NCBI GenBank assembly: GCA_030295235.1
Contig: AP026149.1
Location: forward strand, 496,001-560,000
Source of the DNA: Fistulifera solaris
Taxonomy: Eukaryota
DNA: 64,000 bases
Reading direction: 5' to 3'
Position numbers and translations under genes: made by a program. Under the pieces are notes generated by a model. That model saw nothing but the letters and a program-made list of their open reading frames with translations, did no database searches and was not told the DNA's origin. Positions 2,072-8,108 of the stretch are shown here, piece after piece. Each line of letters opens with the position of its first letter. Position 1 is the first letter of the stretch.

Positions 2072-2619
2072 GGCGGAACAGACACAAAGACCCGGAAAAG
2101 AATGCAGCAAGGCAACTCTCGACAAACAAATACGACGTCAACAAAACAAAATACTGAAACAAAGGTTTTTGTCGGCCAACGCAGACCGCCGCGAAAGCGC
2201 AGCGCGCGGATCGCGAGCACGCAGTAGTAATTTGCGATCGCGATGGGACACGTCAAAGACAGTTCTTCTTCCAATAAGTTCAAGTGTGTGAACGAACGAT
2301 AACGGACGACAACGGACGACTCACGACCAAATCCATCCAGTCGTGAGAAAACGTCGTCTACACTTTAACACATAATAAATGACAGAATATAATGATGAAG
2401 TGTACCCTCGACACGTACGCGCTTCATTTTTCTTCTCAACATTTTCTGCATCATTTTTTGCACGATGTGGTGAGGTTTTCATGACACCATGTCACGCTCC
2501 TCCATGGGTCATCATCGTCATTATTATTTCTTCACATCGTGTCGAATACCATTTCTCGGCCGCGTTTCACAAGCAAGTAGAGACGATTCTTCCGATTGCC
2601 AAGACAGATTCGTGATAAT

Positions 2620-3779
2620 ATGTCCGCGAAGCTAGGGACAATCGCCCAGCCCTCTTCCGATACAGAACAAAAGCAAGTAGTTGCTTCGACTATCCGTCCC
2701 AGCGAGACGCAAAGCGATGGCCTTCAGGAAGTCGATCATATTCTCTCCAATGCGGCTCTCTGTGATTCGAAAACGACTCGTTCCGACACGACCACCCGAA
2801 ACGAAGAGATACTGTCCGTGACGAATCGACTGTTGGGACTGCGAGGATTGCCACCGGGAACACTCGCCACTCTTTCCGAACACGAAATCAAACGTCTGTG
2901 CGCGCAAGTTCGTCCTATATTGTTACAGCAACCTATGTTACTCGAACTCGAAGCGCCAATGCAAATATGCGGAGATATTCACGGACAATTTCCGGATTTA
3001 CTGCGATTATTTCAATTGGGTGGTTATCCACCAGAGTCGAACTATGTGTTTCTCGGGGACTATGTGGATCGAGGGAAGCAGTCAATTGAAACGATTTGTC
3101 TATTATTGGCCTACAAGGTACTTTACCCGGATCACGTCTTTCTTCTCCGAGGCAATCATGAACATCCCGGAATCAATCGAATCTACGGCTTTTACGATGA
3201 ATGCAAACGACGCTACTCTATCAAACTATGGAAATCATTCTCCGATGTATTCAATTGCTTACCAGTTTCAGCTGTAATTGACGACAAGATAATATGCATG
3301 CACGGAGGATTATCACCCCAGCTCAAGTCCATGAAGAACATTGCGGATATACCAAGGCCTTGTGATGTCCCGACTGCCGGATTGATGTGCGATTTGCTTT
3401 GGAGCGATCCGGATGATACAGTCACGGGCTGGCGTGCAAGTGACAGGGGTGTTTCTTTTGTCTTTGGAACGGACGTAGTACGTGACTTTTTGAGAGAGCA
3501 CGACCTTGACTTGGTAATCCGGGCCCATCAAGTAGTCGAAGACGGATACGAGTTTTTGCAGGAAGGGGACTCGTGACTTTGTTTAGCGCGCCAAACTATT
3601 GCGGAGAATTCGATAATGCCGGCGGCATGATAGCGATCGCCGAAGACCTCATGTGCTCATTTCAAATACTGAAACCGTCACCTCAACCTGCTTGTATACC
3701 TAAGCAATCGCAGCAACAGCAGACTTTGACAGCTCCACGGAATCGCTTTACGTTTCCATTACTGCCCTTCTCAGCGTAG
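2620..3779 (+). CDS. PP1: Ser/Thr protein phosphatase PP1 catalytic subunit with N-terminal extension; frameshift at a T run ~3553-3558
   Basis: [36 protein letters not shown], then [18 protein letters not shown] in the next frame. Confidence 0.93.
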
Positions 3780-3846
3780 ATTGTCGCACTATAGGCGAAA
3801 CAATTTAGCACGACGTGTACTTAATTGTTTCTTGTCAAGTCAATTG

Positions 3847-5081
3847 TCATTCATCTGCAGTTTCCGCCACTGCCTCTGAATCGCGAAAGGTAGAACGTGG
3901 CTCGTGTTCTAAGCGAAAAGCATCATTGTGATGGCCCGATCCATTACTCGTTTCTTCCTTGCGTCCTACATTGACCAGAACAAACCCTCCTAGAACCGCT
4001 AAGGCCCCCATTATAGAACCAGCAGTTAACACGTCACTGCGCTGCAGCAAAATGTCACTGGCAAATGCCAGCGGTATTGTCAACCCCAAACCAACCGTCG
4101 CGACGGTGGCACTCGTCAACATGATGGCCCTCAACCACAAATAGTCACTCAGAACATTGTCAAAAGTCCTTTCAAAACAACAAACCCTAAAACACTCATG
4201 CTCAAACTGGATTGACTGCTGAATAATTCGTAAATGGCAATGGGCGACAGAACTACCATATTGTAAAAGTCCAATGTAGCCCAGTAATACTTGCATGCTG
4301 TAGCGACGTTCGTCATGGGGACACAAGATTCGTGTTTGTACGGCATATGCACCATACCCAACGGCGGAAAGGAGACCCAAAGCATCCCCCCAAACGACCG
4401 TGGACGATCGCCCCATATCGTTTGCCTTATCGTCACTATTTTTCCGATCCTCAAGTGCGGTCAGAATACTCCCGGTCACACCCAAGAGTACGCCACTGCA
4501 TTTGACCCAATTGAATGTCTCGTCTTGACAGCTCACGGCAAACAGAAACGTAAACAACGATCCGGTGGATGCCAAGACGGTACTGGAAGTGATGGACGTG
4601 TAGGCAAGAGAAGCATTGTAGGCCCAGTTGGCCAGGAACCAGACGGGGGCAATTTGTCGAGCGGCGTGTTGATGATCGGCCACCGTCCAAACGGAAATGA
4701 CTCGTGATGTTGGAGAAGTCTCCCCTGCCTCCAACTCGTCCCTTATGTTCTCCGTGGAATCTTGACTCGAAACAGAACCATCGGTGTGGACGACTGCATA
4801 GGATTGTCGAGCGTGAGATGAAGAAGACATTTCCATCACGCCGATCGATGTATGTCGATCTTGTAACGCCCAAGCAGACAACAACGAATGCGTCGGCAGC
4901 CATAGAGAAAATAGTGACACACCGATATATGTTAACAAAAGGGAGAATCAAAGGATACATCCTCACTGTACAGATATTGCACTAAAATAGAAGAAGCCGT
5001 CCAGATGAGAGCGACCAGGACAATGAAGAAAAGACCCAACGAGTATGCAGCACTGACGTGCGCGGTCGGATGATCGGGCAT
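3847..5081 (-). CDS. SLC35F5-like drug/metabolite (EamA) transporter with several small frameshifts
   Basis: Multiple TM segments; WFLANWAYNASLAYTSITSSTVLASTGSLFT, GDALGLLSAVGYGAY, VATVGLGLTIPLA; upstream frame gives MPDHPT..LGLFFIVLVALIWTASS. Confidence 0.8.
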
Positions 5082-5203
5082 TTATTTGGAAGCCGCAATG
5101 TGAAAGGATAACTTCGGTAATTGAGATAACGGGCAGTTGCAAATGAATGAATGAATGATCTATTGGTGATCAATAATATTCAACACAACAATCAAAGAAT
5201 AAC

Positions 5204-5361
5204 GACGTTAAAATTCTGCCTCGTCGTGGATGCTACGTAGAATCTTGTACAGGGAACGGCGTTAAAATTCTGCCTCGTCGTAGACGCTACGTAGAATCTT
5301 GTACTGGGAGGCAGAATTTTAACGTCCTTCCTACTGGGAGGCAGAATTTTAACGTCCTTCC
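5204..5361. repeat. Compound direct + inverted repeat (two 54-bp-period units, then two 30-bp units carrying the inverted core)
   Basis: CGTTAAAATTCTGCCTC at 5206 and 5260; its reverse complement GAGGCAGAATTTTAACG at 5308 and 5338. Confidence 0.9.
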
Positions 5362-5516
5362 CCAGTTGTATGTACTACGTACAAACTATTAATCATCGTC
5401 GCGCAGTCGCGCAATACTTTGTGTGATACTACGTAGTATCGTAGTATCCCTGAACATAAGGAAAAGATGATGATTCTTCCGTAGTATACAGTGTCTAAAA
5501 GTACCAGGTACTGGTA

Positions 5517-7593
5517 CACCCTCCGTTCCAAAAAAAGCTGGTTCTAGAATTATAAAGATATTCCGTATTAAGCTGGGTAATTTTTACAGTAAGGTGATAA
5601 GTACCAAAAGTACCCGGATAACCTTAACCACTAATCTACAAGTCCTTCAAAATGCGCACCATTAGGGAAAAAGCCAACATTCCGACTTGTAGGAAACAAA
5701 GAAATGTTGTGTATTGTCTTCCTAAATTAAAGACTATTACTAGGTTTGCATCTGTAACAAGTTACAGGCTTGCCGTACCCTTCTTCGCCATCTGAGGTAC
5801 CGCAGATTGCATGCACAACATAGGAACAAATCAAACAAAAGTGTGCAGCATCAGCAGGTTTTCCACAGAAACCACAATTGACCTTTTCACCCACTTCACA
5901 AAGGGAAAACAACTTGCTTCCATCAGGTGGAGGTGCAATCATGGCATTTGTAGAAGGAGCGCTCACCCTCAAAGTCAAAGCAGTAGGAGTTGCCAAAGCA
6001 TTCACAGCAGGTGCAGTTGCGGCATTTGTAGGTGCGCTTGCCCTCACAGGAGTATGGGTCACCCTAGCCAGAACTGCGGCACGATCTAGAACAGTAGGAT
6101 CGCACAATAAACTTTCAGGCAATAGGTTCTTTCTGCGCAGTGCTTTCTTTTCATGTGCCCCAACTTGTAGCTGTTGCCGCCACCACATCTCATTGTTGCC
6201 TGCATAGCCATTTGAAGACTAAGGAAAACATCGTTGAGCGTGTCGCTAGTCAATTCATCAAACGATTCCTCCACTGCGGCAACCAGATCATCGATTATCT
6301 TTGGTACCTTCTTGTGCTGTAATGACTGGATAGAATTTAAAAAGCCCAGGTCAAGGACGTTTAGATCGGGGCTATTTGGCGGTTGGCACCTGAATGAAAT
6401 GCCGAAATTGCCGTCTTCTGCTGCTTCTATGAGAATAGGGTCATCAACATCACAATGAGGTTTTGCATTGTCTTGCTGAATAATGATCCGGTGGCGTTCG
6501 CTGCAGAGCATCTTTTCTTTGATGGCCGGGAGGAGTTCCTCAATAATCATCTGTCGAATGACATCCTTTGTCACTGAAGTCATCGCTTTTGTTTCCAATG
6601 TTCCTCTTTCGCGATTTTTAGAGTTCCGCTTCACCGGTTTTTTATAAACAAAGGGCCAGATTCCAATTTTACCGTCGAAAACCTTGTTTTCGACATGATC
6701 GAATCTCGGCCGTGTAACGGCAGCTAAGAACATCACTTTCGTAATGAACCTTTTACTTTTTGTTGTTCGCTTAGGGGTCTCTTCCCATGGCAACAAGTAA
6801 TAATTCTCGTTGACCTTGGTCATATAGAACCACTTTTCATCAATGTGAATGTAATTCATCATCCGATCGAACATCCCATCCTCTCCAACGAATGAACGGC
6901 AAAAGTTGAATCGTTCCTTCTTGTTTTTATCAGTGAGTACAGGCTTGATTGCATTGCTATGCCGGACAATCTTCCCAGATTTCAACAAGCGCCAAAGTGA
7001 TGTCTTTGGTATACTGATTGCAAAAGATAAAGACATAAGCGTGGTCCTCTTTGGTCCTCGTCACGATACTTTCTCTTGCGCCCACTATTTCCTTTCTTTC
7101 GGTTGGAGATGTCAACTTCCACATTTGGATCAAGAACTCCTTCTCTAGCTTGTTTCCAGAGGCTTTGAATCTGGGATTTCTTGAACGGGAAGAGGGTTAG
7201 AGCTTCTTCGAGGGCACCCTTAACCAAACGCCCCTTTTATGGCGTTGTGAAAGAAAAACGACAAGACTTGTGCGGTCCGCATCTGACGCATTTGGCTTCC
7301 TGTTGGCTAAACCTCGTCTTGCAATTATTTCATTCAACTGTTCATTCATTTGTTCATTCATTCCAAATCAAAAGTGAAGCCTGGTCGAACCAATTTAGCA
7401 TTGAAAACACGCGGTGATTTTCCAATGCTCACGATGAGGATGATGAAACAGTGCGCTACCACAGAATTGGGGCTTGTTGAAAAGCTCTCGAAAAGTAGAA
7501 TATTTTGATGTTTTAAAATATGTAATTAGTCCAAAAACCGCAATAAATAAGCAAAAATGCGTAAATATCCAGCTTTGTTTGGAACAGAGGGAG
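5517..7593 (-). mobile_element. Tc1/mariner superfamily DNA transposon, DD39D (plant-mariner type), 2077 bp, 25-bp TIRs, TA target-site duplication
   Basis: Left TIR CACCCTCCGTTCCAAAAAAAGCTGG (5517-5541) vs right TIR revcomp CTCCCTCTGTTCCAAACAAAGCTGG (7569-7593), 22/25 identical; TA at 5515-16 and 7594-95; CTCCCTCCGT-type terminus as in Stowaway/Osmar elements. Confidence 0.93.
5727..7361 (-). CDS. DD39D mariner transposase with probable C-terminal PHD-like zinc finger; three frameshifts (~7236, ~7045, ~6148)
   Basis: HIDEKWF, KVMFLAAV, GKIGIWPF, QQDNAKPH-...-PPNSPDLNVLD with 39 residues between the 2nd and 3rd Asp; N-terminal basic GRKRK; tail C-x2-C-x9-C-x2-C-x4-H-x2-C-x14-C-x2-C. Confidence 0.88.
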
Positions 7594-8108
7594 TATCTTG
7601 TACAAATTTTATTGTTTCGTTGTTATCATCCGCGCGATGTCAAGCGCGATGGGCGACCATATCTTTCGGTTTTGCGCTTTCGTCTGTTGCTATAAAGGAT
7701 TATTTCTCCCTTTCATAAGGCAATAAGGAAAGGCACTGGACTACGTTATCGACGCTCAGTTTGTCAACCCAGAAGACTTTAAATTGCTTGAGATCGCAAC
7801 ACATTACCTCAAGGTGAAAATCCATCTCGACCACGTTTTCTATGTAGCCGACTCCTGTGGGATACCGCCCTATCGCAATCGAGGCCCGAGAAGACAGAAC
7901 GGTCGGCCTCCATTGCCGTAAAGATAGACCAAAGAGATCCAATGAATCATCGTAGAACGATGAGAAGGAAGCCTGCGAACGAGGTAGAAGGTGCTCACCA
8001 GCACGTTGCGCCGGAGGTTGACAGTCGACCTCCATTGCGTTAAAGTTGACGGAGCTATAGCAAATTGTTTCTCTTTCTCCAATATAAGCTGAAGTAAAAT
8101 TATGATTA

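What the first reader, a model, noticed from the sequence alone, without database searches (positions are those of the whole stretch)
5727..6190. DD39D mariner transposase apparently fused to a PHD-like (C4HC3) zinc finger
Seen: adding one A to the run at ~6148 turns the transposase end into YKLGHMKKKALRRKNLLPESLLCD, which reads like a normal DD39D C-terminus. The frame then continues through an Ala/Pro/Thr linker (RASAPTNA..RVSAPSTNA) into C-x2-C-x9-C-x2-C-x4-H-x2-C-x14-C-x2-C (5876-5748), inside the TIRs. Established: this is PHD ligand spacing; cross-brace zinc fingers serve RAG2 and piggyBac transposases but are not part of canonical mariner transposases. Inference: a mariner lineage with an added chromatin- or DNA-reading module that could bias target choice. 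The Trp usual before the last CxxC of H3K4me3 readers is missing, so the ligand is unknown.
Basis: partly seen in the sequence, partly recalled or inferred. Interest (0 to 1): 0.78.

Follow-up and report, generated by a model that had tools for sequence, protein, structure and literature searches.

The report
Diatom mariner transposase with added zinc finger
This is a damaged copy of a plant-type mariner transposon from a diatom whose transposase really does end in an extra zinc-finger module, one that also occurs on other kinds of transposon enzymes and may tether them to chromatin.

Summary
On the minus strand, TA-flanked inverted repeats (5517-5541, 7569-7593) enclose a DD39D (PlantMar) mariner transposase gene. 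Its frame, shifted by one base at 6147/6148, runs through a 73-residue Ala/Thr/Pro/Val linker into C-x2-C-x9-C-x2-C-x4-H-x2-C-x14-C-x2-C (5876-5748).

Contigs built from reads of the same organism carry the extra base at 6147 and another at 7234. Intact relatives of 494-573 aa encode the same fusion, and a diatom transcriptome peptide has it too.

The finger passes Pfam's cut-off for Znf_SCAND3 (PF23663), not for PHD. Its fold is a generic cross-brace, only weakly like PHD or FYVE. The same module sits on pogo-like DDE_1 transposases and Ginger-like integrases, so it is a promiscuous transposon accessory.

Among PlantMar relatives it is rare: 10 of 121 proteins and 0 of 80 metagenome loci. All carriers lie in one sublineage. 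The finger core is as conserved as the catalytic domain (60% against 63%; linker 15%).

What the finger binds was not tested. I infer a tether to a conserved host (chromatin) ligand. It is a new variant of a known kind, of moderate interest.

The parts
5515..5516 (.). TA target-site duplication, 3' side of the element as read on the minus strand
   Evidence: TA directly flanks the TIR. X2 contigs diverge at 5518 (table 7).
5517..5541 (-). 3' terminal inverted repeat (CACCCTCCGTTCCAAAAAAAGCTGG on the plus strand), Stowaway/PlantMar type
   Evidence: pair I2: 27 nt including TA, 89% complementary; 3 matches in the window against 0.06 expected by chance.
5542..5726 (-). 3' untranslated part of the element
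   Evidence: X1 has one extra G behind 5664 here.
5727..5729 (-). Stop codon of the fused ORF
5748..5876 (-). Cross-brace zinc finger core, C-x2-C-x9-C-x2-C-x4-H-x2-C-x14-C-x2-C (Pfam Znf_SCAND3)
   Evidence: coordinates. (PF23663, 43.1 bits against a cut-off of 27). (ligands 90% or more conserved in 73 family members). (model pLDDT 87.3).
5877..6095 (-). 73-residue low-complexity linker (A15 T9 V8 P8 L7), with a pre-finger stretch PPDGSKLFSLCEVGEKVN at its end
   Evidence: Mean pairwise identity among relatives is 15%. X3 and X4 contigs and P0001 lack 48 nt in frame (6016-6063; table 5).
6096..6147 (-). Conserved transposase C-tail KKALRRKNLLPESLLCDP, read in the finger's frame
   Evidence: Homologous to the ...LP..L.C.. 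end of canonical PlantMar transposases.
6147..6151 (.). T4 homopolymer where the window is one base shorter than read-derived contigs, giving an apparent frameshift
   Evidence: table 4: T put in behind 6147 in X1 (17.3 of 17.3 depth), X3 and X4. One search gives the sequence context.
6148..7048 (-). Second HTH and DD39D catalytic domain. Catalytic Asp codons at 6839-6841, 6470-6472 and 6350-6352.
   Evidence: ORF 6086-7060. (HTH_Tnp_Tc3_2 and DDE_3, both weak). (spacing 39). (2265 relatives at E<=0.001).
7049..7056 (-). Real lesion: 8 nt stand where P0001 has 12 codons (HIEKIREVPLSQ), a net loss of 28 nt that shifts the frame
   Evidence: compared by eye. X1 record 8 (6638-7640) has a single gap, the one at 7234, so the lesion is in the reads' assembly too. 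The deposited model P0002 starts downstream of it.
7057..7234 (-). N-terminal DNA-binding region (DUF7769-like HTH)
   Evidence: PF24964 at 19 bits, below the cut-off. In relatives it reaches 32-70 bits.
7231..7234 (.). Second T4 homopolymer one base short in the window
   Evidence: table 4: T put in behind 7234 in X1 (17.9 of 17.9 depth). One search gives the context.
7235..7361 (-). Start of the ORF (ATG at 7359-7361): MNEQMNEQLNEIIARRGLANRKPN...
   Evidence: It matches the N-termini of P0001 and P0271.
7569..7593 (-). 5' terminal inverted repeat (CTCCCTCTGTTCCAAACAAAGCTGG on the minus strand)
   Evidence: An X3 contig diverges after 7595 (table 7).
7594..7595 (.). TA target-site duplication, 5' side

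Best explanation
**What it is (shown).** The locus is a 2,077-bp non-autonomous (damaged) copy of a PlantMar/DD39D mariner-like transposon in a diatom. The closest named protein is from Fistulifera solaris. Its family encodes one continuous transposase. That protein has two N-terminal helix-turn-helix motifs and a DD39D catalytic core. It then has the usual short C-tail, a variable flexible Ala/Pro/Thr-rich linker of about 40-90 residues, and a roughly 45-residue two-zinc cross-brace finger of the Pfam Znf_SCAND3 family at the very C-terminus.

Two of the three frame breaks in the window are homopolymer length differences that are absent from read-derived contigs. The third, a net 28-nt loss between the two HTH motifs, is real and inactivates this copy.

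**How it most likely works (inferred).** Cut-and-paste is done by the standard mariner machinery: the HTH motifs bind the TIRs, the DDD triad cuts and joins, and the target is TA. The finger is an accessory tether on a flexible leash. It binds a conserved host nuclear ligand, most likely a histone tail or another chromatin protein. That would concentrate the transposase on, or steer integration to, particular chromatin, as chromodomains do for chromoviral integrases and the PHD finger does for RAG2.

I put about 0.9 on the architecture and about 0.4 on the tether function. The overall figure reflects both.
For: **Architecture**
- Pfam PF23663 scores 43.1 bits against a cut-off of 27.
- X1 contigs carry the extra base at 6147 and at 7234.
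- Intact fused ORFs exist: P0001, P0271, P0121, P0004, P0007 and P0014. The transcriptome peptide P0028 is fused too.
- TIRs and TA flanks are present. Relatives' contigs end at the same termini in other flanks (table 7).
- The DD39D spacing is 39.

**Constraint on the finger**
- Finger core pairwise identity is 60%. The catalytic domain is 63% and the linker 15% (15 pairs of 6 divergent fused proteins).
- All eight C4HC3 ligands are invariant in 8 of 8 fused sequences and conserved at 90% or more in 73 family members.
- Indels in the linker are in frame (48 nt, table 5).

**A portable module aimed at a shared ligand**
- The same finger, with a near-invariant non-ligand loop G-x-E-G-[YF]-G, occurs with Integrase_H2C2/rve in 2 of the 28 longer family members scanned. 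It occurs with pogo-type DDE_1 in 3 of those 28.
- These elements have unrelated ends, so a conserved host ligand fits better than element-specific DNA.
- Finger-less PlantMar transposases are the rule, so the finger is not needed for end binding. It is present in only 10 of 121 proteins and 0 of 80 metagenome loci.
- The family's net charge is about neutral: median 0 over 71 fingers, and 0 for the window's finger.

**PHD-leaning hints**
- Jade-1 PHD matches at E 0.005.
- The top protein-atlas clusters are PHD, score 0.93.
- PHD fingers head the Foldseek list for the better model, though at E 0.77 or worse.

**Precedent in print (passages read)**
- PHD and Chromo readers are recurrently fused to TE domains, with tethering proposed (bioRxiv 10.1101/2021.11.30.470311).
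- Ginger1 transposases carry extra C-terminal PHD/Ulp1/OTU domains (PMC2836005).
Against: - No binding data of any kind exist for this finger.
- It fails Pfam's PHD model: no PF00628 row at E<=1.
- It lacks the Trp before the last CxxC that H3K4me3 readers use. The column is V/I/T.
- Structure searches are not significant. Foldseek's best E is 0.77-1.0.
- VIA-align's best Z is 3.9, to FYVE-type Rab-effector fingers rather than PHD. The piggyBac DNA-binding finger 5lme is also listed, at Z 2.0.
- A neutral net charge does not exclude DNA binding.
- A ninth conserved residue, His30, has no counterpart in PHD fingers and is unexplained.
- The window's own copy is dead, so nothing here shows current activity in this genome.
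- Only Logan contigs, not raw reads, could be laid on the window. The two homopolymer differences could in principle be allelic rather than assembly errors.
- The fused forms are few, 10 clusters at 90% identity, and most come from short unnamed metagenome contigs.
Confidence: 0.5

Rival explanations
1. The finger is a DNA-binding domain for the element's own ends, like the C-terminal cross-brace cysteine-rich domain of piggyBac transposase. It would help assemble the synaptic complex rather than read chromatin.
For: - It has the same position (extreme C-terminus) and the same fold class as the piggyBac CRD.
- 5lme appears among the 15 chains with Z>=2 out of 48,161 searched, at Z 2.0.
- The abstract of PMC5861402, seen in the listing, states that the CRD is essential for transposition and binds DNA sequence-specifically.
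- 30 of 71 family fingers carry a net positive charge.
Against: - The same finger, with the same conserved surface loop, is attached to three transposase or integrase types with unrelated ends.
- Most PlantMar transposases work without it. Canonical tails are 28-38 aa and 0 of 80 related loci have a finger.
- The window's finger has net charge 0 and the family median is 0.
- Z 2.0 is within noise for that search.
Confidence: 0.2
2. The finger mediates another protein contact: transposase oligomerisation or regulation, nuclear import or turnover, or recruitment of a host repair or SUMO/ubiquitin factor. It would have no role in target choice.
For: - The nearest solved folds by Z are FYVE-type zinc fingers of Rab effectors and RIM, which are protein-protein modules (Z 3.5-3.9).
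- The conserved GEEGYG loop and the extra His30 fit no known histone-reading motif.
Against: - Those Z values are below the level at which the search's own notes allow any inference.
- Sequence and language-model leads point to PHD rather than FYVE.
- Nothing here tests oligomerisation.
Confidence: 0.2
3. The fusion is not a transposon feature. Either it is an artefact (a chance open frame after a real frameshift, or a captured host exon), or it is a host gene domesticated from a transposase.
For: - The window as given has the frameshift.
- This copy is N-terminally broken, yet about 444 codons downstream stay open.
- The deposited gene model P0002 (382 aa) lacks the DNA-binding N-terminus.
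Against: - The Pfam hit is above the cut-off.
- Ten divergent clusters keep the reading frame and every ligand.
- TIRs, TA duplication and contigs of relatives ending at the same termini in other flanks show mobility.
- High-depth end pieces in X2 (110-190x against 9x for a flanking contig) suggest many copies.
Confidence: 0.05

Closest known systems
PlantMar / DD39D plant mariner-like elements. Named by Dupeyron et al. 2020, PMC7325037 (passages read). Osmar, Soymar1 and Ppmar are examples recalled from memory.
   Same: DDD triad with 39-residue spacing, TA duplication, short Stowaway-type TIRs (CTCCCTC...), and the N-terminal DUF7769 and Tc3-type HTH motifs. The transposase is 50-57% identical to land-plant proteins.
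   Different: Canonical members end 28-38 residues after GGNxYKxPH. This lineage adds a linker and a zinc finger, giving tails of 104-149 residues. The host is a diatom. The paper describes the family as plants plus a few oomycetes, with a 'typical' structure, and contains no occurrence of 'PHD'. A named diatom transposase, P0334 (Pseudo-nitzschia multiseries), lacks the finger.
Znf_SCAND3 (Pfam PF23663) fingers of Ginger/GIN-like integrases. For comparison, Bao et al. 2010 (PMC2836005, passages read) report Ginger1 transposases with extra C-terminal PHD/Ulp1/OTU domains.
   Same: Same Pfam finger family, placed downstream of the catalytic domain of a DDE enzyme. P0137 has Integrase_H2C2, rve and Znf_SCAND3 at 64 bits.
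   Different: The catalytic domain is a retroviral-type integrase, not a mariner DDD. There the finger is internal (385-432 of 579), not terminal. I did not test whether Bao's 'PHD' (smart00249) is this same family.
Pogo-type (DDE_1) transposases with a C-terminal Znf_SCAND3 finger (unnamed database proteins P0131 and P0212)
   Same: They belong to the IS630-Tc1-mariner group and carry the finger at the extreme C-terminus (254-288 of 290; 273-307 of 309).
   Different: Different transposase family (pogo). The pogo survey PMC7386202 has no occurrence of 'PHD' in its text.
piggyBac transposase C-terminal cysteine-rich domain (PDB 5lme; PMC5861402, abstract seen in a listing only)
   Same: A C-terminal cross-brace two-zinc finger on a cut-and-paste transposase.
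   Different: Structural similarity is only Z 2.0 and no sequence match was found. The piggyBac domain binds transposon DNA, whereas this finger is shared by elements with unrelated ends.
Chromatin-tethered recombinases: the RAG2 PHD finger, chromodomains of chromoviral integrases such as MAGGY, and the SET-mariner fusion SETMAR (cited in bioRxiv 10.1101/2021.11.30.470311, passages read)
   Same: A small reader-type module appended to a DDE enzyme. That is the mechanism proposed here.
   Different: No reader activity is shown for this finger. SETMAR is a host gene with an N-terminal enzyme domain. The survey used Pfam 33.0, which predates PF23663, and its Supplementary Table 6 could not be opened.

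Membership tests
PlantMar / DD39D mariner-like elements | DDD catalytic triad with 39 residues between the second and third Asp | tested here: met
   Spacing is 39 in the window (D at 6470-6472 and 6350-6352). The same spacing was found in nearly all of the relatives where both motifs could be located.
PlantMar / DD39D mariner-like elements | Short TIRs of Stowaway type and a TA target-site duplication | tested here: met
   TIRs of 25 nt plus TA on each side, 89% complementary. The pattern occurs 3 times in the window against 0.06 expected.
PlantMar / DD39D mariner-like elements | N-terminal paired HTH DNA-binding region | tested here: inconclusive
   In the window, DUF7769 scores 19 bits (cut-off 27) and HTH_Tnp_Tc3_2 21.8 bits (cut-off 31.5), and the region is broken. 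In the fused relatives P0004 and P0007, DUF7769 passes at 32.2 and 29.7 bits.
PlantMar / DD39D mariner-like elements | Transposase groups with plant mariner-like transposases | tested here: met
   50-57% identity to many land-plant proteins at E about 1e-100. It sits in a 43-row sister clade to the 79-row plant clade (quick tree).
Pfam Znf_SCAND3 (PF23663) | Score above the curated gathering cut-off | tested here: met
   43.1 bits against 27, E 4.1e-11. P0001, P0004 and P0007 score 39.8, 35.7 and 40.6 bits.
Pfam Znf_SCAND3 (PF23663) | Family signature C-x2-C...H-x-C-x2-C-x4-H-x2-C-G...G-x-E-G-[YF]-G...C-x2-C | tested here: met
   C19, C22, H30, C32, C35, H40, C43, G44, E50, G53, C58 and C61 are conserved at 90% or more in 73 sequences, and all are present in the window.
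Canonical PHD finger (Pfam PF00628; histone H3 tail reader) | C4HC3 ligand order and spacing | tested here: met
   C-x2-C-x9-C-x2-C-x4-H-x2-C-x14-C-x2-C at 5876-5748.
Canonical PHD finger (Pfam PF00628; histone H3 tail reader) | Match to the PHD sequence profile | tested here: not met
   No PF00628 row at E<=1. The only rows are PF23663 and a weak C1_2. The best solved PHD by profile is Jade-1 at E 0.005, with single stretches at E>=3.7.
Canonical PHD finger (Pfam PF00628; histone H3 tail reader) | PHD fold | tested here: inconclusive
   The model has pLDDT 87.3. Foldseek lists PHD fingers first but at E 0.77 or worse. VIA-align's top matches are FYVE-type fingers at Z 3.9.
Canonical PHD finger (Pfam PF00628; histone H3 tail reader) | Aromatic cage, with a Trp before the last CxxC (a feature recalled from memory) | tested here: not met
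   The window reads GKPVTCYRC, and the family columns there are V/I/T. A near-invariant Tyr/Phe in G-[YF]-G lies six residues before that Cys. Its role is unknown.
Canonical PHD finger (Pfam PF00628; histone H3 tail reader) | Binds a histone tail | not testable with these tools
piggyBac-type DNA-binding cross-brace domain | Structural similarity to the solved CRD | tested here: inconclusive
   5lme at Z 2.0, rmsd 2.7 over 40 residues, rank 15 of 15.
piggyBac-type DNA-binding cross-brace domain | Sequence-specific binding to the element's own ends | not testable with these tools
   Indirect only: the same finger occurs on enzymes of elements with unrelated ends.

The most novel reading that the evidence does not exclude
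A single small cross-brace finger (Znf_SCAND3) may be a shared 'address label' passed among three unrelated DNA-transposon enzyme families: PlantMar mariners, pogo-like transposases and Ginger-like integrases. It would bind one conserved chromatin feature and steer integration. If so, this diatom lineage would be the first mariner-type transposon whose target choice is set by a chromatin reader rather than by TA dinucleotides alone. The extra invariant His and the GEEGYG loop would define a reader surface different from that of known PHD fingers.
Probability: 0.25. Interest if true: 0.75.

Novelty: new variant of a known kind. Interest (0 to 1): 0.5.

Why it matters
Mariner-type transposons are the textbook case of near-random, host-independent insertion at TA, which is why they are used as mutagenesis and gene-delivery tools. 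A natural mariner lineage that keeps a reader-type finger under constraint would matter in three ways:

- It extends to this superfamily the theme that mobile elements capture chromatin-binding modules.
- It gives a compact natural module, about 45 residues on a flexible leash, whose effect on integration sites can be tested directly.
- It offers a handle on how transposons and chromatin interact in diatoms, where DNA transposons are little studied.

The finding also shows that a Pfam family known only by name (Znf_SCAND3) is a promiscuous accessory of transposon enzymes. That helps annotate hundreds of orphan proteins.

Tried and rejected
- **Own genome.** None is held, so copy number, intact copies and insertion polymorphism in the host could not be examined.
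- **Phage collection.** No match. This was an unsuitable collection.
- **Word-index search with the finger alone.** It returned only 4 proteins among 18 candidates, so it says little about the finger's range.
- **Metagenome scan for DNA of fused copies.** All 80 kept loci were finger-less PlantMar elements, 0 of 80 at E<=0.01. TIRs and dN/dS of other fused copies therefore could not be studied.
- **Substitution count.** 19 listed differences of the X3/X4 contigs were classified: 2 synonymous and 2 non-synonymous in the finger core, 6 and 6 in the linker. That is too few for a test, and 25 further differences were not shown.
- **RNA evidence.** No RNA holder was listed. X1's kind is only guessed as 'RNA?', so nothing is concluded about expression in this organism.
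- **First structure model.** From 8 sequences, only 1 of 5 models was confident (81 against 42-47). It was replaced by a model from 73 sequences.
- **AU test on the full tree.** The 122-row test did not finish in two 288-second runs, so I used a 48-row subset. The groups were named after seeing the tree.
- **Earlier findings of this scan.** Nothing came back by place, sequence or words.
- **Papers not held.** Nguyen et al. 2014 on Amphora mariners, and the journal version of the chromatin-evolution paper under a DOI I recalled. bioRxiv supplements are closed, so its Supplementary Table 6, which lists 823 TE-chromatin fusions, was not seen and might include this architecture. Additional File 4 of PMC7325037 (PlantMar structure) was not opened.
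- **Solo TIR-like match at 3463-3478.** No partner arm was found. I treated it as chance or a relic.
Full report
**1. What is in the sequence**

Read on the minus strand, the region 5515-7595 is a complete transposon frame.
- TA plus a 25-nt terminal inverted repeat lies at each end (5517-5541 and 7569-7593). The pair is 89% complementary over the 27 nt reported.
- The outer bases are CTCCCTCTGTTCC / CACCCTCCGTTCC, the Stowaway/plant-mariner type.
- The 16-nt TIR pattern occurs 3 times in the window against 0.06 expected by chance.
- Between the repeats, four minus-strand frames together spell one transposase: 7361-7235 (MNEQMNEQLNEIIARRG...), 7234-7057, 7048-6148 (the 324-aa frame 6086-7060 holds the catalytic core), and 6147-5727.
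- The last frame reads KKALRRKNLLPESLLCDP, then a 73-residue linker rich in A, T, V and P. It ends CGFCGKPADAAHFCLICSYVVHAICGTSDGEEGYGKPVTCYRCKPSNSL and a stop.
- The C-x2-C-x9-C-x2-C-x4-H-x2-C-x14-C-x2-C pattern lies at exactly 5876-5748.
- The catalytic Asp codons are at 6839-6841, 6470-6472 and 6350-6352, with 39 residues between the last two.

**2. Are the frame breaks real?**

No whole genome is held for this window. I looked for public runs that hold the stretch and laid four of them on it. All four are kept as assembled contigs, not raw reads.
- Run X1 holds 95% of the sampled words and covers all 30 bins at about 17x. It shows no base substitution and extends into both flanks, so it is the same organism and locus.
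- X1 differs from the window by one extra T behind 6147, one extra T behind 7234 and one extra G behind 5664.
- The first two sit in T4 runs.
- Metagenome contigs in X3 and X4 (90-95% identical) also have the extra T at 6147.
- The deposited protein P0002 is 100% identical over the shared 243 residues and is named Fistulifera solaris FisN_13Lu158 by its source. It reads GHMKKKALRRK, which the window's DNA cannot encode without that base.

The breaks at 6148 and 7235 are therefore most probably homopolymer errors of this assembly, or less likely an allele.

- Between the Glu codon at 7059-7057 and the Arg codon at 7048-7046 the window has 8 nt.
- The intact relative P0001 has 12 codons there (HIEKIREVPLSQ). 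That is a net loss of 28 nt.
- X1's contig over 6638-7640 has a single gap, the one at 7234, so this lesion is real in that assembly too.
- It explains why the deposited gene model starts at a downstream Met.

This copy cannot make a full transposase.

**3. Is the fusion real elsewhere?**

A search with the 324-aa catalytic frame found 2,265 relatives (E<=0.001, 2,992 candidates), of which 120 were listed.
- Eight of the 120 carry a precomputed PF23663 domain.
- A profile built from the fingers, and an independent C4HC3 regular expression, both found the finger in the same 10 of 121 proteins: P0001, P0002, P0004, P0007, P0009, P0010, P0014, P0028, P0073 and P0121. Seven of the ten had been used to build the profile. 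The regular expression is not affected by that.
- Six are full-length uninterrupted ORFs of 494-573 aa. Cluster mates P0271 (538 aa), P0275 and P0279 (513), P0281 (500) and P0282 (656) also have the finger.
- P0028 comes from a transcriptome collection (a diatom by its source label), so in at least one diatom the fused ORF is on an mRNA.
- A second search with a profile of ten fused proteins found 1,506 relatives at E<=1e-30 (120 listed) but no further fused cluster.
- None of 80 related metagenome loci has the finger.
- A named diatom transposase (P0334, Pseudo-nitzschia multiseries, 503 aa) lacks it.

Tail lengths make the same point.
- Canonical relatives end 28-38 residues after GGNxYKxPH.
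- The fused forms have 104-149 residues.
- Three others (P0013, P0051, P0107) have long tails without a finger.

**4. Mobility**

Related contigs in other samples stop matching exactly at the TIR termini and run into unrelated sequence. X2 does so before 5518 and X3 after 7595 (table 7). In X2 the end pieces and the 5554-5911 piece have depth 110-190, against 9 for a flanking contig. Relatives are thus inserted elsewhere and are multi-copy, and the finger lies inside the mobile unit.

**5. Phylogeny**

On a tree of the transposase with the finger's own columns removed (122 rows, quick IQ-TREE, LG+G4):
- Land-plant proteins form one clade of 79 rows.
- All finger carriers lie within a 15-row group (SH-aLRT 89) of the other, 43-row clade.
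- One subclade is P0004/P0007/P0014 (100*).
- A second subclade (100*) has ten rows: eight carriers plus P0003 and P0005.
- P0003 is 468 aa and stops 28 residues after the motif.
- P0005 is C-terminally cut, so it cannot be scored.

On a 48-row subset the carriers alone are rejected as one clade (p-AU 0.0026). Carriers plus P0003 and P0005 are not rejected (p-AU 0.26). The groups were named after the tree was seen. One gain with a later loss or truncation is compatible with the data. It is not proven.

**6. What the finger is**

- The tail scores 43.1 bits against Pfam Znf_SCAND3 (PF23663), whose cut-off is 27. It gives no PHD (PF00628) row at E<=1.
- A profile of eight fingers, run against 1.84 billion representative proteins, found 486 at E<=0.001 and 28 at E<=1e-10.
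- I scanned 28 of the longer hits. All match PF23663. One of them, P0251, scores 22.6 bits, which is below the cut-off.
- Two of the 28 also carry Integrase_H2C2 (one of these with rve). Three carry pogo-type DDE_1, and in two of those the finger is at the extreme C-terminus. The rest carry nothing else of note.
- In 73 aligned family members C19, C22, H30, C32, C35, H40, C43, G44, E50, G53, C58 and C61 are conserved at 90% or more. The loop G-x-E-G-[YF]-G is nearly fixed.
- His30 is a ninth candidate ligand with no counterpart in the C4HC3 scheme. I cannot explain it.
- With the 73-sequence alignment AlphaFold gives pLDDT 87.3, and all five models lie between 82.9 and 87.3.
- Foldseek finds nothing at E<=0.001. 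PHD fingers (KDM2A, TAF3, BHC80, PHF13) head the list at E 0.77-1.5.
- VIA-align against 48,161 chains gives 15 with Z>=2, the best at Z 3.9. These are FYVE-type fingers of Rab effectors and RIM. The piggyBac finger 5lme is last at Z 2.0.
- By sequence the best solved match is the Jade-1 PHD at E 0.005.
- The protein atlas puts PHD clusters first, at 0.93.

The fair label is a cross-brace finger of the FYVE/PHD kind, Pfam family Znf_SCAND3. It has PHD-type ligand spacing, but membership in PHD proper is not shown.

**7. Constraint**

Among six divergent fused proteins (15 pairs), mean pairwise identity by region is:

| Region | Mean identity |
|---|---|
| N-terminal region | 53% |
| Catalytic domain | 63% |
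| Short C-tail | 46% |
| Linker | 15% |
| Finger core | 60% |

Linker length differences are in frame: 48 nt are absent in X3, X4 and P0001. The finger is kept as carefully as the active site, and the linker is only a leash.

**8. How it most likely works**

- **Shown.** The element is a plant-type mariner with all the parts for TA-targeted cut-and-paste, plus a constrained C-terminal finger.
- **Inferred.** Most PlantMar transposases lack the finger. The same finger, with the same conserved surface loop, rides on enzymes of elements whose ends are unrelated. So it is unlikely to recognise the element's own DNA. It more likely binds something common to the hosts' nuclei, a histone tail or another chromatin protein. 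It would then tether the transposase or bias integration.
- **Precedents read in print.** PHD and Chromo readers are recurrently fused to transposon domains, with tethering proposed (bioRxiv 10.1101/2021.11.30.470311, passages). Ginger1 transposases carry extra PHD/Ulp1/OTU domains (PMC2836005, passages).
- **Against.** There are no binding data, no PHD profile match and no cage Trp. Fold matches are not significant, and net charge is neutral (median 0 over 71 fingers), which decides nothing.
- **Rivals.** A piggyBac-like end-binding domain (0.2), another protein contact such as oligomerisation or regulation (0.2), and artefact or domesticated host gene (0.05).

**9. Novelty**

The general theme, reader-type fingers on transposon enzymes, is known. 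The Pfam family exists, and UniRef already labels P0002 'SCAN domain-containing protein'.

I found no description of a Tc1/mariner or PlantMar transposase with such a finger.
- The PlantMar survey calls the structure typical, names plants and a few oomycetes as hosts, and has no occurrence of 'PHD' (PMC7325037, passages).
- The pogo survey has none either (PMC7386202).
- No paper in the library holds 'PF23663' or 'Znf_SCAND3'.
- Searches combining mariner, transposase, PHD finger, diatom, stramenopiles and PlantMar gave nothing relevant.
- **Limits.** The Amphora mariner paper is not held. The supplementary fusion table of the chromatin paper could not be opened. That study used Pfam 33.0, which I believe predates PF23663.

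**Verdict**

The function is open. This is a new variant of a known kind, of moderate interest.

Noticed in passing
8 nt stand where the intact relative P0001 has 12 codons, a net loss of 28 nt between the two HTH motifs. The roughly 444 codons downstream stay open.
   Followed up: partly
window 5201-5362: A cluster of 22-32-nt inverted and direct repeats (AACGACGTTAAAATTCTGCCTC and its complement) lies about 150 nt outside the element's 3' TIR (pairs I1 and I3-I5). It may be another small repeat element.
   Followed up: no
window 3463-3478 (-): A solo TIR-like match CTACGTCCGTTCCAAA with 2 mismatches. No partner arm was found within 2600-4300. It is chance or a relic end.
   Followed up: partly
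window 6590-6667: The contigs of run X1 break here into six alternative pieces of 31-55 nt with different depths (table 8). This is a variant bubble, suggesting a second allele, homeologue or copy that differs at this spot.
   Followed up: no
window 5515-5911 and 7541-7595, as covered by run X2: In a wetland metagenome, contigs covering only the TIR ends and the 3' part with the finger have depth 110-190. A 1,896-nt flanking contig has depth 9. This looks like a high-copy relative, possibly including short derivatives.
   Followed up: no
window 6016-6063: 48 nt (16 codons of the linker, RVTHTPVRASAPTNAA-like) are absent in frame from the X3 and X4 contigs and from P0001. The linker of this copy carries an in-frame insertion or duplication (table 5).
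   Followed up: partly
protein P0046: A PlantMar transposase is labelled by its source as a protein of a Cyanobacteriota metagenome-assembled genome. This is most likely a eukaryotic contig binned by mistake.
   Followed up: no
protein P0282: This 656-aa cluster mate of a fused transposase has an extra N-terminal stretch of roughly 120 residues before the transposase. It was not examined and may be a gene-call read-through.
   Followed up: no
finger family alignment A2, position 30 of the window finger (window 5841-5843): A His one residue before the third Cys is conserved in 71 of 73 family members. This ninth candidate ligand does not fit the eight-ligand C4HC3 scheme.
   Followed up: partly
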